A stretch of DNA of 64,000 nucleotides, from assembly GCA_951406725.2 (NCBI GenBank), contig OX597821.1:54684001-54748000 (forward strand), in the 5' to 3' direction. The stretch comes from Octopus vulgaris. Taxonomy: Eukaryota. The translations under genes and the position numbers were made by a program. Of the stretch, positions 50,313-56,680 are shown piece after piece. The notes beneath the pieces were generated by a model. That model made no database searches and was not told the origin of the DNA. It saw only the letters and a program-made list of their open reading frames with translations. Position 1 is the stretch's first letter. Every line of letters begins with the position of its first letter.

Positions 50313-50382
<70 letters not shown>

Positions 50383-50697
50383 TTTAAAAAATATATATAT
50401 ATAAATATATACATATACACAGTAATTTTCATTTTCGCCGAAACGCACATGGTGCAAAAATAACTGAATCAAGTTATCTCCTGCAAGAAAGAAAAAAGAA
50501 GCATCTCTCCTGAAAAAAATCCCGTAAACCAAAAAAAAATAATCCAGACCACATTGTTGGATTAAGTATCAATTTCATCTATTTCATATTTTATTTATTA
50601 TTCTATTTTATCTTTCACTTAGGCCCACATCTTAGTTAAAGTTGCGATCGTCATTTTGTTTGTTTACATTTTCAATATCTGTTCTCGATATAATAAT

Positions 50698-52177
50698 TTT
50701 CCAGATACTCTATCTTCTAATTAGCCTTAAGATTAAATTAAATAACGTTTAATATTGATACCGTCAAATTAGCCTTAGGATTAAATTTAATAACGTTTAA
50801 TATTGTTTAATATTGTTAATAATTATTGTTAACTAGCCTTAGGATTAAATTAAATAACGTTTAATATTGTTTTAATATTGTTAATAATTATTGTTAATTA
50901 GCCTTAAGATTAAATTAAATAACGTTTAATATTGTTTAATATTGTTAATAATTATTGTTAATTAGCCTTAGGATTAAATTAAATAACGTTTAATATTTTT
51001 AATATTGTTAATAATTATTGTTAATTAGCCTTAAGATTAAATTAAATAACATTTAATATTGTTTTAATATTGTTAATAATTTTTCAGATACTCTATCTTC
51101 TAATTAGCCTTAAGATTAAATTAAATAACGTTTAATATTAATAACGTCTAATTAGCCTTAGGATTAAATTAAATAACGTTTAATATTGTTTAATATTGTT
51201 AATAATTATTGTTAATTAGCCTTAGGATTAAATTAAATAACGTTTAATATTGTTTAATATTGTTAATAATTACTGTTAATTAGCCTTAAGATTAAATTAA
51301 ATAACGTTTAATATTGTTTAATATTGTTAATAATTATTGTTAATTAGCCTTAGGATTAAATTAAATAACGTTTAATATTGTTTAATATTGTTAATAATTA
51401 TTGTTAATTAGCCTTAAGATTAAATTAAATAACGTTTAATATTGTTTTAATATTGTTAATAATTCTTCAGATACTCTATCTTCTAATTAGCCTTAAGATT
51501 AAATTAAATAACGTTTAATATTACCCACACTCTAATATAATATTAACATTGCTAATATATTTTCAGATACTCTATCTCCTAATTAGCCTTAAGATTAAAT
51601 AACGTTTTTACCCACACTCTAATATAATATTAATATTGCTAATATATTTTCAGATACTCTATCTTCTAATTAGCCTTAAGATTAAATTAAATAACGTTTA
51701 ATATTAATAACGTCTAATTAGCCTTAAGATTAAATTAAATAACGGTTAATATTGCTTAATATTGTATATATAATTTTTCAGATACTCTGTCTTCTAATTA
51801 GCCTTAAGATTAAATTAAATAACGTTTAATATTACCCACACTCTAATATAATATTAATATTGCTAATATATTTTCAGATACTCTATCTCCAAATTAGCCT
51901 TAAGATTAAATAACGTTTTTTTTACCCACACTCTAATATAATATTAATATTGCTAATATATTTTCAGATACTCTATCTCCTAATTAGCCTTAAGATTAAA
52001 CAACGTTTTTATCCACACTCTAATATAATATTAATATTGCTAATACATTTTCAGATACTCTATCCCCTAATTAGCCTTAAGATTAAATAACGTTTTTACC
52101 CAAATAACGTTTTTACACAAACTTTAATATTGTTAATATTTCTTTTTCAAGTACTCTATCTTCTAATTAGCCTTAAT
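50698..52177 (+). repeat. Modular higher-order AT-rich tandem array, 21 copies of core (AAT)TAGCCTTA(A/G)GATTAAA
   Basis: Core TAGCCTTA counted by eye at 50722, 50770, 50834, 50899, 50963, 51026, 51105, 51153, 51217, 51281, 51345, 51409, 51488, 51584, 51671, 51719, 51799, 51895, 51985, 52072 and 52168. Confidence 0.95.
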
Positions 52178-52237
52178 ATCTTCCTGTCTTCTCTCGAACA
52201 TAATTAGATAGATAAACGGATAGACGGATTATCCAGC

Positions 52238-55200
52238 ATGTCCAGAGCATGGAGACCTGACGAGCTGGATTTATTCGTACAAGCATGGGAGTGCGCCGGC
52301 GGAGATAGCCCTAGCGAGGTGATTGCGGCTGCGCTGAAGAGCAGAGGCTATACAAGAGGACAGCGGCTCAGATGGAGCGAAAGAGACGGGAATTCGTGCG
52401 CTCATATGCGCTTGTACGGTCGCACATCGGCGCACTTGATGCCATCTTTGAGAACGAGCGGAGCAAAGATGGCAAGAATGGAGACGATGAAAGAAGTCAC
52501 CCCCACCTGGTGGACGCCCGGGAGGAGGTTTTGAATGAGAAACCTGCCCGGGAAGTGAACCCAGGTGCAAGTTCTCCAACCGGCAGCAAGGGCCATGGAG
52601 ACGGAGAACCCGGTGAAGAGGTAGAGGGAGGAAGAAGAACTAAAAGAAGGACTGGAAGTGCTAAAGGAAAAGAAAAAGCTCAAGCAGGACCAAAGAGTGA
52701 AACAACCAGGAATAGAAGTGGAACCGCAAAGGATGGAACCAAACAGCGCACACGGGTGTGTATGTTCTACCTGAGAGGTTCCTGCTGGCATGGAAAGGAA
52801 GGTGCAGGCTGCTTCTTTGCACATCGGGGACCCTGCCACAGAGACACGAGGCAGATGGACAAACCATCAACACAAAGAAAAGGGATGGACCACGCACCAC
52901 CTTCCCCAAAGCGGAGGTACGCAGATGTTGTGCGCGCCACAAACAGCCAACATGATGTTGTCGAAAGAGCAGCTGCTGAGCAACAATCTTTTTGTGCATG
53001 GCACAAAGATTGTACAGCAGCTGACCTGGCTTCATCAAACCCAAGCCCGCAGGTGGGACTACCCACTATATACCAGACCACCACAGCAAACAGACACAGG
53101 ATGGACACCGCCGGCAACAACGTACACCTCACCTCGATACTCCTACTGAACATCAGAGGACTGCAAACACTCAGTAACAGGACAAAGATCCCGTTCCTGA
53201 GAGACTTTGTTGCATGCAATCAAACCTTATGCATAGCACTTACAGAAACGCACCTGAAACCGGACATAGCAGATGCGGAGTTACACATACCACAGTATGC
53301 TGTACTACGGACCGACAGGAAAGAAAGGAGTCATGGAGGTGTTGCTATGTACATCCGTGAGGACCTCACACCCCAGGTCCTCTTGTCATACTCAAACTCG
53401 GTGTGTGACACACTAATTGTACATATTAGGCAACTTGATGTAGTTGTGTGTGCTACATATCGCCCTCCAGATGCCCCAAGCCATGTGGGCAAGTTTGAAG
53501 ACTGCCTTATAAAAATAGAAGAAATTCTAACCACATTAGAACAACACATAGGTGTGCTTCTTATGGGAGACTTCAATCTGCCCAATGTCAGATGGCCCGA
53601 GGGCCTTTCTCTCCCAGGAATGACAAGATGTGAACGAGGACAGGCGAGGTCCCTCCTGAACCTCATCAACACCCTGTACATGGAGCAGGTAATACTCCAA
53701 CCAACCAGGGCAGGTAACACACTGGATCTCTGCTTCACAAATGACATGGATCTCATCCATAATGTGAAAGTGACACCGACACTACTCTCGGATCACAACA
53801 TGATAGAGCTGACCATGTACGGGCCAAAAGAGAGCACGGACATGCAGCCTACAAGAAACCCTCAAAATCTTTCCAGCTTGAACTACCATAAGGCAAACTG
53901 GAAACAAATTGAGAAAGAGATCCTCAAACAAAACTGGCCTAAATGTCTCTCCTCGCCAGACATCGACGTGAAACTTCAACAATTCATGTCTGTAATGCAA
54001 GCCATATGCTACAAATGTGTCCCAGAGAGAAAGGCCACTGTACACAAGAACAAAATCCCCAGAGAGAGGAAAATTTTAATAAGACGGCGTACGAAATTTT
54101 CAAATCGCCTAAACAAACAGATTGAAAGCAGTGAAAAGTCCCGCCTAAAAATAAAACTGTTGGAAATCGAAAAATGTCTGCAACTCTCCCATGAAAAAGA
54201 AAGAGCAGACAAAGAAGCCTGGGCTATAGAAAACATAAAATCTAACCCCAGAGCTTTCTACAGGTATGCCAAAGAAACAGCTACAGTGCACTGTAGAATA
54301 GGGCCACTCCTCGAAAAGGATGGCACACTTACAGGAAAACCAATGAGGGTAAGTGAAATACTGAATGAGCAATTCAAGAGTGTTTTCACTCCACCCCTTG
54401 GGCATCTCCAAATCACCAATCCAACTGACTTTTTTACCACTGCAGATATAAAATCAGAGGCGGCGAAGATAGATTACATCGATATAAAGGAAGACGATGT
54501 AACCAAGGCTATAGATGAAATGAAAACAGACTCAGCTACTGGCCCCGATGGATTCCCGGCAATCCTCCTAAAAGCATGTAAGAGAGTCCTAGCAAGACCA
54601 CTGCAGTTCCTCTTTCAGAGCTTCCTTGCAGCTGGCAAACTTCCAGGAAAACTGAAGGAAGGTAAAATATGCCCCATTCATAAAGGAGGTAGCAGAGCGG
54701 AAGCCAAGAACTATAGACCTATCTCTCTGACCTCACACATCAGCAAGGTCATGGAACGAATAGTCAGAAGGAAGCTGATCACCTTCCTTGAAGAGAATGA
54801 CTTGCTGCCCGACACCCAACATGGTTTCCGACCAGGGAGAAGCTGTTTAACTCAGCTCCTACAACACTATGACTGGGTGCTGAAACGGCTGCTCAACCAC
54901 TCAAATGTGGAAGTGATATATCTCGACTTTGCAAAGGCCTTTGATAAAGTCGATCATGGAATGATATGTCACAAACTGTGTGATCTCAACATAGTTGGAA
55001 AACTGGGAGAATGGCTTCATGACTTTCTGAAGGATAGAAGTCAGGTGGTAGTAGCCAATGGGGCCACCTCCATTAACACACAAATAGTGAGCGGTGTTCC
55101 GCAGGGCACTGTTCTGGGACCACTACTGTTCATAATGGCCCTCTCAAACATGCCCTCAGCCACGCAGAGAGCCACGATCACAAGTTATGCAGATAATACA

Positions 55201-56097
55201 AAAGTTTCACAGGCAATACAGAACCCTGAGGACACTAAACACCTGCAATGTGAGCTGGACGAAATATACAAGTGGGCTGAAAAGAATAGCATGCAGTTCA
55301 ATGCTGGAAAGTTTCAAGCTTTATACTATCAGCATGCAAAACTGAATGCAATACCCAATGAATACACTGGACCCGGAGGGATTGCAATCCCAGAGGCACA
55401 ATCAGTGCATGACCTGGGTATTCACATGAGTGATGACGCGACCTTTCATGTACATGTTGCTAAACTGACAATGAAATGTAGACGGCTGGCTGGATGGATT
55501 CTTAGAACCTTTAGAACAAGAGAACAAGAAACCATGATGGTCCTCTGGAAGACACTTGTCCTAAGCCACTTTGACTATTGCTCTCAGCTATGGTCACCAT
55601 CCAGTGTCAAGTTGATCACAGAACTTGAGGCGATCCAACGAAACTACACAAAGAAGATAGCCTCTATGCAGAATGTAAGCTACTGGGAAAGACTCAAGAG
55701 ATTAAAATTATATTCCCTGGAGCGTCGGCGGGAAAGATATGCCATAATATACATCTGGAAGATCCTGGAGGGAAGTGTCCTGAACTTTGGCATCGAGAGT
55801 TACGCAAATGCCAGAACTGGGCGCCACTGCGTGGTGCCTAGGACTCCAAACCTGCCATCAAGATGTAGGACAAGATTCTGTGATAGCCTGGGCTTCTGAG
55901 GCCCACAGCTCTTCAATATCCTCCCGAAGAACCTGAGAGACCTGCATGGGGTGGATACAGATGTCTTTAAAATGAAGCTGGATCTCTTCCTGTCAGGTGT
56001 CCCAGATGAACCAACTTCACGGCAGGAGGGGCAGATGAGGGCAGCTGCATCGAACTCTCTCATGCACCAAATAGCAGTTGCTAGAAAGCCTCCATGA
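52238..56097 (+). pseudogene. LINE coding region: Myb/SANT-like domain, CCCH zinc finger, APE endonuclease and reverse transcriptase (1175-aa ORF 52372-55899 plus disrupted ends)
   Basis: CX7CX8CX3H at 52759-52824; EN motifs LLNIRGL, TETHL, MGDFN, NTLDL, SDHN; RT motifs QHGFR, YLDFAKAFDKV, SGVPQGTVLGP, YADN; frameshift at about 52350; TGA at 55897 with the frame continuing open to 56097. Confidence 0.9.
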
Positions 56098-56215
56098 AGT
56101 GAAACCAAGTAGCAACACCAAATGGCGGTGCCCCAGCATGGCCACAGCTCATAAGCTGAAACTAGAATCAATCAATCAATCAATCAATCAATCATGTATG
56201 CATGTATACACATGC

Positions 56216-56317
<102 letters not shown>

Positions 56318-56680
56318 ATATATTTGTGTGTGGAGTCAATTTCTTTTCTAAATGGAATGTATTGTAAATAATGTAGTATTAGAAACATGACTATAGCTTT
56401 GCTCAGATAGGCCTGATTAGGTGACTAACAACAAAAAAGCAACGTTAAAACAACAAGCAACAACAATAGCAATAACAAGAATAACAATGACAACAAATGT
56501 CACAACAACACTGATCTATGTCTAGATATAAATGTACTACTAATACAGAAGAGCAAGATGAAGTATTATGTTAAGAAATAAATATTTAAATTACACTTTG
56601 GTTTCTTCTCATTATCTCAATGTGCCAGCAGGTGCAGTCTTACTCATACACATCCATCCATCCATCCATACATACATACA

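What the first reader, a model, noticed from the sequence alone, without database searches (positions are those of the whole stretch)
50698..52177. 21-unit modular higher-order repeat directly upstream of the Myb-RT ORF: possible cognate binding array or monomer promoter
Seen: a near-invariant core AATTAGCCTTA(A/G)GATTAAA(TTAAA)TAACGTTT recurs 21 times with core-to-core spacings 48,64,65,64,63,79,48,64,64,64,64,79,96,87,48,80,96,90,87,96. Units 1-6 and 7-12 form two 383-bp higher-order blocks. Most spacings cluster near multiples of 16 bp. Units are built from a few swappable modules (aatattgtt; ttttcagatactctatcttct; cccacactctaatataat). The array ends about 60 bp before the ORF1 ATG and lies between a unique leader (50421-50697) and the coding region. 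Inference: it is part of the LINE 5' UTR, analogous to rodent L1 monomer arrays. Trihelix/Myb proteins bind AT-rich motifs, so the element may encode a protein that binds its own array (autoregulation or integration tethering). This is the best candidate here for an undescribed system.
Basis: partly seen in the sequence, partly recalled or inferred. Interest (0 to 1): 0.75.

Follow-up and report, generated by a model that had tools for sequence, protein, structure and literature searches.

The report
Hypervariable repeat spacer in LINE leader
A real, fast-changing chain of short repeats sits inside the non-coding front end of a young jumping gene, but most copies start well upstream of it and sister elements with the same Myb-like domain lack it, so it is likely a tolerated spacer reshuffled during copying rather than a promoter chain or a docking site for the element's own protein.

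Summary
The array is real (21 cores, spacings as stated). It is an internal variable-number repeat in the 5' UTR of a young two-ORF LINE (137 array/ORF junctions in the genome) that inserts into (TA)n; it is not a free satellite. 68 full-length copies show 53 architectures of 8-34 units.
It is not a rodent-type monomer promoter: 62 of 100 copies start at one terminus about 470 nt upstream; this copy is 5'-truncated.
A cognate Myb array is unsupported. Sister families D and E keep the Myb-like plus CCCH ORF1 under purifying selection but have no array and no core motif (0 of 27 copies). Family C has a different 42-bp array in some copies and none in others.
Best reading (0.6): a G-poor, AUG-free spacer, standing where sisters have a CT-rich tract, likely reshuffled by slippage or template switching during retrotransposition. 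A host-factor enhancer role stays open (0.2).
The more unusual feature is the Myb+CCCH ORF1 in a (TA)n-targeting lineage. The scan noted a terminal monomer array in another LINE of this genome (untested here).

The parts
50313..50385 (.). Upstream (TA)n target microsatellite; the 5'-truncated element joins it within AT-rich sequence
   Evidence: 72 of 77 terminal 5' flanks of family A have (TA)4 within 30 nt against 6.5% background
50386..50697 (+). Remnant of the roughly 470-nt 5' leader. The first ~145-150 nt, with the terminal CCGGTTCC...AGACGTG end, are missing in this copy. Holds TATAAATA at 50400, a TCA initiator-like site with A at 50431 (31 nt downstream) and a 4-codon uORF at 50449-50463
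   Evidence: the TATA/Inr reading is a consensus match only
50698..52177 (+). Modular minisatellite (VNTR), 21 cores, 80% A+T, 8% G, no ATG
52178..52237 (+). 60-nt unique spacer between the array and the ORF1 start
   Evidence: 137 exact junction hits
52238..53149 (+). ORF1 (303 aa in intact copies): Myb/SANT-like three-helix domain (aa 3-66), CCCH-type zinc finger (near 52759), C-terminal helix. Frameshifted in this copy (2-nt insertion near 52349; 1-nt deletions near 52993 and 53004)
53101..56097 (+). ORF2 (998 aa in intact copies): APE endonuclease plus reverse transcriptase, overlapping ORF1 by 49 nt. This copy reads YADN at the catalytic motif and has a stop at 55897-55899
56098..56194 (+). 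Short 3' UTR and (AATC)n tail
56195..56323 (.). Downstream (TA)n-type target microsatellite
   Evidence: 78 of 90 family-A 3' flanks have (TA)4 within 30 nt

Best explanation
The array is an internal variable-number repeat in the 5' UTR of a young (TA)n-targeting LINE, and it likely acts as a tolerated, G-poor, AUG-free spacer whose units are likely gained, lost and shuffled by slippage or template switching when the element is copied. Shown: it lies between a fixed leader and ORF1, changes in whole units or modules, and occupies the place where sister families carry a CT-rich tract. Inferred: the RNA that gets retrotransposed starts at the terminal leader about 470 nt upstream, so the array is copied passively with each insertion. 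Shared cores let reverse transcriptase or recombination re-register between units. Neither the promoter nor the ORF1 Myb-like domain needs the array.
For: Always between leader and ORF: 137 junctions x 9.39 exact cores per locus = 1286 of 1371 genome hits, and further arrays with mutated junctions are seen in L111-L117 and L198. 53 architectures among 68 full-length copies, 8-34 units, 636-2466 nt. 27 of 34 copy pairs with at most 5 body SNPs differ by 40 nt or more in array length. Unit edits from the modal array do not rise with copy age (rho 0.09, p 0.52, n=55). L187 is a single-switch B/A chimera, which fits template switching. 62 of 100 junction-ascertained copies reach one 5' terminus and 14 end in the array (L111-L130 removed from its lists). 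Myb-bearing families D (16 of 20 fetched copies located) and E (11 of 14) have no array and 0 TTAGCCT/AGGCTAA in 1750 nt upstream; 6 D and 4 E copies reach their 5' terminus. Their UTRs have 4-6% G, CT-rich tracts instead. Family C occurs with a 42-bp array and without. No RNA structure beyond shuffles (z -0.18 and -0.01).
Against: ATTAGCC is invariant across 20 inherited unit types while 18 of 36 columns vary (p 0.0017 raw, 0.07 after removing indel-shift columns), which hints at selection on a motif. Tandem arrays arose twice in the same UTR region (A/B and C), and the C unit carries AGGCTAA, the reverse complement of the A core 7-mer (p 0.014 with a post-hoc GC criterion, 0.29 for any 7-mer). 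The larger, homogenised array goes with the younger, larger subfamily (median private changes 4 in A against 13 in B). The age test includes inherited differences between sources, and assembly error in unit counts was not excluded: no allelic pair was found among the flanks compared.
Confidence: 0.6

Rival explanations
1. The array is a homotypic cluster of host transcription-factor sites (homeodomain TAATTA and GATTA, Fox- and Sox-like words) that tunes expression from the upstream promoter by unit number, like an internal enhancer or insulator.
For: 26 TAATTA, 20 (A/G)GATTA and 27 ATTGTT words in the window array; weak invariance of ATTAGCC (p 0.07); the expansion accompanies the younger subfamily. 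Mouse monomers can act as enhancers (PMC11602158, passages). The motif assignments are recalled, not from a call.
Against: Such words are expected in 80% A+T DNA and are multiplied by the repeat itself. D, E and array-less C amplify without them. Private changes hit the core at the normal rate (13 in 9 columns against 31 in 27), as expected after insertion, so that test is uninformative.
Confidence: 0.2
2. The ORF1 Myb-like domain binds its own array (autoregulation).
For: The Myb-like domain is kept under purifying selection across families (pN 0.27-0.37, pS 0.70-0.84). TTAGCCT/AGGCTAA is shared by two independently amplified arrays. The Harbinger Myb-like protein binds a 9-bp subterminal motif of its own element (PMC9710019, passage).
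Against: D shares 12 of 18 and E 10 of 18 third-helix residues with A, yet 0 of 27 copies hold the motif. C units vary at that word (AAGCTAA, AGGCTGA), and the A and C units do not align better than shuffles (p 0.14-0.93). DNA binding by this domain is itself untested.
Confidence: 0.08
3. The array is an amplified 3' splice-site region of a 5' UTR intron, or a run of polyadenylation signals, that attenuates full-length RNA.
For: 7 TTTTCAG and 35 ATTAAA in the window array. Subfamily B has a pyrimidine tract ending in CAG before its first unit. D and E UTRs have GTAAGT donors and long Yn-YAG acceptors.
Against: No consensus donor or strong acceptor in A. No GT-AG-joined 20-mer in 140 A/B loci. 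No spliced D copy in the genome. No joint or loose end at the leader in 8 runs, and contigs bridge the leader-array border unspliced. Full-length copies all pass through the array.
Confidence: 0.08
4. Each unit is a promoter monomer as in rodent L1.
For: Tandem units in a LINE 5' UTR followed by a short unique stretch before ORF1; a sublineage has duplicated leader-plus-unit blocks of 372 nt (L078, L088, L095, L113, L130, L147).
Against: The array is internal, not terminal; 62 of 100 copies start at one upstream terminus; in-array ends show no shared phase; the units are AT-rich with no CpG island.
Confidence: 0.04

Closest known systems
Mouse and rat L1 5' UTR monomer arrays with tether (PMC5381506 and PMC11602158, passages)
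   Same: Tandem units of variable number in a LINE 5' UTR, followed by unique sequence before ORF1.
   Different: Here the array is internal, behind a fixed ~470-nt leader where 5' ends pile up; units are 48-122 nt, modular, 80% A+T, without a CpG island; no promoter activity is shown.
Internal tandem duplications and low-complexity tracts in horse, elephant, opossum, dog and cow L1 5' UTRs (PMC5381506, passages)
   Same: Repeat-rich, rapidly turning-over segments inside a LINE 5' UTR that differ between related families.
   Different: Far more units (8-37), a higher-order modular order, and copy-to-copy variation within a family that is about 99% identical.
PIF/Harbinger Myb-like protein and its subterminal 9-bp site (PMC9710019, passage)
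   Same: An element-encoded Myb/SANT/trihelix-like domain.
   Different: A DNA transposon with demonstrated binding; here a LINE ORF1, no binding shown, and the motif is absent from Myb-bearing sister families.
Microsatellite-targeting APE-type LINEs: Waldo, Mino, Kibi, Koshi (PMC3812793, passage)
   Same: An APE-RT element inserting preferentially into a microsatellite.
   Different: The target is (TA)n, which the passage read does not list for these elements; ORF1 has a Myb-like domain plus a CCCH finger.
RTE-2_OV octopus LINE (PMC9115989, passages)
   Same: Full-length LINE from an octopus; the named protein hits of this family are labelled Octopus vulgaris.
   Different: RTE-2_OV has one 1109-aa ORF, UTRs of about 600 nt and a C2H2 finger; this element has two ORFs and a 1.2-2.9-kb 5' UTR.

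Membership tests
Autonomous APE-type LINE | APE endonuclease and RT in ORF2 | tested here: met
   Pfam RVT_1 E 5e-31 and Exo_endo_phos_2 E 2e-12 on L061
Autonomous APE-type LINE | 5' truncation, simple-repeat 3' tail, dispersed near-identical copies | tested here: met
   (AATC)n tail, 5'-truncated copies, about 99% identity
Autonomous APE-type LINE | Assignment to a named clade | not tested
Rodent L1-type monomer promoter | Array at the 5' terminus, with element ends inside monomers | tested here: not met
   62 of 100 copies end at a terminus about 470 nt upstream; 14 end in the array at scattered positions
Rodent L1-type monomer promoter | CpG-rich monomers | tested here: not met
   Array is 20% G+C
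Rodent L1-type monomer promoter | Each monomer has promoter activity | not testable with these tools
   Only assembled contigs were served, no raw reads
Rodent L1-type monomer promoter | Variable unit number between copies | tested here: met
   8-34 units in 68 full-length copies; 37 in L055
Cognate Myb-binding array (Harbinger-like) | Element encodes a Myb/SANT/trihelix domain | tested here: inconclusive
   PF13837 E 6e-4, 20.5 bits against a cut-off of 27; three helices at pLDDT 73-89; top Foldseek rows are MYB domains but none reaches E 0.001; atlas scores under 0.9. Consistent but each weak
Cognate Myb-binding array (Harbinger-like) | Binding motif co-conserved with the domain across families | tested here: not met
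   0 of 27 D/E copies and 0 of 8 array-less C copies hold TTAGCCT/AGGCTAA in the stretch scanned
Cognate Myb-binding array (Harbinger-like) | Sequence-specific binding of the domain to the motif | not testable with these tools
   Needs EMSA or SELEX
Free-standing satellite | Arrays occur away from the element | tested here: not met
   1286 of 1371 hits predicted from junction-bearing copies; all 12 arrays listed on C1 lie beside a junction
Spliced 5' UTR intron | Donor-acceptor pair with spliced products | tested here: inconclusive

The most novel reading that the evidence does not exclude
This LINE lineage carries a DNA-binding Myb-like domain in ORF1 that reads AT-rich DNA and steers insertion to (TA)n, and two sublineages independently amplified a TTAGCCT/AGGCTAA site into 5' UTR arrays that the same domain binds, giving copy-number-tunable autoregulation.
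Probability: 0.08. Interest if true: 0.8.

Novelty: new variant of a known kind. Interest (0 to 1): 0.36.

Why it matters
As a spacer VNTR it is a modest finding: repeat-rich LINE 5' UTRs are known. What it offers is a natural series for testing 5' UTR turnover: five related families in one genome with the same ORF1, differing in array (none, 42-bp, modular), plus about 140 near-identical copies differing only in unit number. It also points to an ORF1 type (Myb-like plus CCCH) that I did not find in the papers searched, in a lineage that targets (TA)n. If that domain binds DNA, ORF1 would have a targeting or regulatory role beyond the RNA-chaperone role known for LINE ORF1 proteins.

Tried and rejected
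Expression: no RNA holder listed on record; the runs used are guessed RNA and kept as contigs.
Second start site at the TATA/Inr (50400/50431): guessed-RNA contigs of organism A in three studies lack family-A cover over the first ~200 nt of the leader, which run X15 covers. But the contig start at L061:2031 is also a genomic branch point (the leader-duplication junction), holes prove nothing, organism B contigs run on, and no genomic copy with a non-C base before that site was found. Not accepted.
Splicing: no joints, no spliced D copies, no GT-AG joins in A/B.
16-bp periodicity: 4 of 13 distinct unit lengths.
RNA structure: z about 0.
Inverted homology of the A and C units: not significant. 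Direct homology of the A module to the end of the C, D and E UTRs: p 0.10-0.89.
Single fused Myb-RT ORF: 1 of 112 copies; the ORF1 frame is conserved in A-E.
Allelic pairs for post-insertion change: three flank matches, all on different chromosomes; the small contigs that might be haplotigs were mostly not examined.
Clade assignment: not achieved.
Sequence look-up in earlier scan notes gave two unrelated bacterial findings; the word search found none.

Full report
Observation. The array is as described. TAGCCTTA occurs 21 times between 50722 and 52168 with exactly the stated spacings, once elsewhere in the window and never on the minus strand. TRF finds periods of 64, 87-90 and 383 (2.2 copies, 97%). 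The last core is truncated and ends 60 nt before the ATG at 52238. The array is 80% A+T, 8% G and has no ATG.

The element. The window lies in a 2.8-Gb genome; the named protein relatives are labelled Octopus vulgaris, so the host is likely an octopus. The 32-nt core has 1371 exact hits (control 0), the array/ORF junction 137 and the leader 93. I fetched 99 of the 137 junction loci (all listed ones other than the window) and 20 leader loci. Bodies are about 99% identical, with a median of 4 private changes in 3988 nt. The element has two ORFs: a 303-aa ORF1 in 46 of 112 copies, against one fused frame, and a 998-aa APE-RT ORF2 in 37 of 108; 21 copies have both. It ends in (AATC)n. 78 of 90 3' flanks and 72 of 77 terminal 5' flanks have (TA)4 within 30 nt, against 6.5% of random window positions. 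The window copy is broken and 5'-truncated: other copies begin about 190 nt upstream of the stated leader, at a sharp CCGGTTCC end.

The array across copies. It always lies between leader and ORF1. 137 junctions times 9.39 exact cores per locus predicts 1286 of the 1371 hits, and further arrays with mutated junctions exist, so there is no room for a free satellite. 68 full-length copies show 53 architectures, 8-34 units, 636-2466 nt; the commonest occurs 10 times. Architecture partly follows body clades, yet 27 of 34 pairs with at most 5 body SNPs differ by 40 nt or more. Distance from the modal array does not grow with copy age (rho 0.09, n=55). L187 switches once from B-type to A-type body. 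These results fit change at or before insertion, by slippage or template switching between shared cores. That step is inferred; inherited source differences and assembly error were not excluded.

Not a monomer promoter. Rodent monomers are tandem, CpG-rich units with their own transcription signals (PMC5381506 and PMC11602158, passages). Here 62 of 100 junction-ascertained copies reach the upstream terminus, 20 end elsewhere in the leader, 14 end in the array and 4 abut gaps (L111-L130 removed). The in-array ends share no phase. The terminal (T)CCGG start is shared by families A, B, C and E; D starts with AAGATGGCG, which matches the YY1-type L1 start given in PMC5381506.

The Myb test. ORF1 aa 3-61 scores PF13837 at E 6e-4, below the cut-off. 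It folds as three helices at pLDDT 73-89, and MYB domains rank first in Foldseek without reaching E 0.001. I then asked whether the array travels with the domain. Subfamily B (11 of 20 loci; body 97%, first leader half 75% identical) has the same core in a shorter, differently ordered array. Family C (body about 72%) has a 42-bp array amplified from a different UTR segment in 4 of 30 loci (38 exact hits at 10 places; 7-24 units) and none in 8 leader-bearing copies. Families D and E (about 75% and 67%) are young and numerous. The Myb start was located in 16 of 20 D and 11 of 14 E copies; none has an array or a TTAGCCT/AGGCTAA word within 1750 nt, and 6 D and 4 E copies reach their terminus. The domain is conserved in all (pN 0.27-0.37, pS 0.70-0.84; third helix 10-13 of 18 identical). 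So the domain persists without the array. What all families share is the (TA)n flank (D 5 of 6, E 3 of 4, C 5 of 5) and a long G-poor stretch before ORF1: CT-rich in C, D and E, AT-rich repeat in A.

Results against my reading. The C unit contains the reverse complement of the A core 7-mer (p 0.014 under a post-hoc GC criterion, 0.29 for any 7-mer; whole-unit alignment not significant). ATTAGCC is invariant across 20 inherited unit types (p 0.0017 raw, 0.07 after I removed indel-shift columns by hand). Arrays arose twice in the same UTR region, and the larger array belongs to the younger subfamily. These keep an enhancer or cognate reading alive at low odds.

Splicing and RNA. D and E UTRs carry consensus donors and acceptors; A carries only TTTTCAG words. 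No spliced genomic copy was found. The array RNA folds no better than shuffles.

Comparison with what is known. Tandem and low-complexity segments inside L1 5' UTRs, and fast UTR turnover, are described (PMC5381506, passages). Cognate binding by an element's Myb-like protein is shown for a Harbinger DNA transposon (PMC9710019, passage). Microsatellite-targeting APE LINEs are known (PMC3812793, passages). The published octopus LINE RTE-2_OV is a different element (PMC9115989, passages). A term search of the Jockey-superfamily ORF1 survey gave 0 hits for Myb, SANT, CCCH, trihelix and MADF in the main text (PMC4120745), and the gastropod and bivalve surveys gave 0 for Myb. PMC10294476 (section 9) reports 16 unclassified O. 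sinensis LINEs; I could not test whether this lineage is among them. Searches (listings) showed no description of this array or ORF1 type; supplements and Repbase were not seen and may hold it. PMC1885662 (passages) gave only general context on UTR enhancers and insulators. A profile of the five ORF1s finds 28 proteins at E 1e-10 or better among 1.84 billion; 4 of 10 looked up are labelled Octopus vulgaris and 6 are unnamed.

Verdict. A real, element-borne, hypervariable 5' UTR minisatellite. It likely works as a tolerated spacer (0.6), possibly as a host-factor enhancer (0.2); a cognate Myb array (0.08), an attenuator (0.08) or a monomer promoter (0.04) are unlikely. New variant of a known kind; interest 0.36.

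Noticed in passing
window 52238-53149; L061:3474-4382; alignment A1: ORF1 with a Myb/SANT-like N-terminus plus a CCCH finger, conserved across five LINE families that all flank on (TA)n; not found in the ORF1 papers searched. A role in target choice is untested.
   Followed up: partly
L290-L309 (family D) and L310-L320 (family E), 5' UTRs: Consensus splice donors (GTAAGT) followed by 500-1000 nt pyrimidine tracts and YAG acceptors close to the ATG: an intron-like 5' UTR, yet no spliced genomic D copy was found.
   Followed up: partly
L078, L088, L095, L113, L130, L147: Sublineage with a 372-nt tandem duplication of most of the leader plus the first units, up to three leader copies; the junction lies at a TTTT microhomology.
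   Followed up: partly
L324-L329, L207, L211, L225, L226: Family C carries an independent 42-bp tandem array (7-24 units) amplified from the end of its leader.
   Followed up: yes
L290, L291, L298, L300, L307, L309: Family D starts with (C)AAGATGGCG, matching the YY1-type start of mammalian L1, whereas A, B, C and E start with (T)CCGG: a likely promoter replacement.
   Followed up: no
L134/L135 (C12:45.51 Mb) and L109/L110 (C10:98.09 Mb): Inverted pairs of copies facing each other; either twin-priming or inverted duplication, or assembly artefacts.
   Followed up: no
L187: Clean single-switch chimera, 5' half subfamily B and 3' half subfamily A.
   Followed up: yes
L046, upstream of the array: The 5' end of this copy is a 42-nt leader piece repeated several times, each separated by (TA)n, suggesting repeated re-priming at the target.
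   Followed up: no
window 50400-50435: TATAAATA 31 nt upstream of a TCA initiator-like site, specific to family A and retained in this truncated copy.
   Followed up: partly
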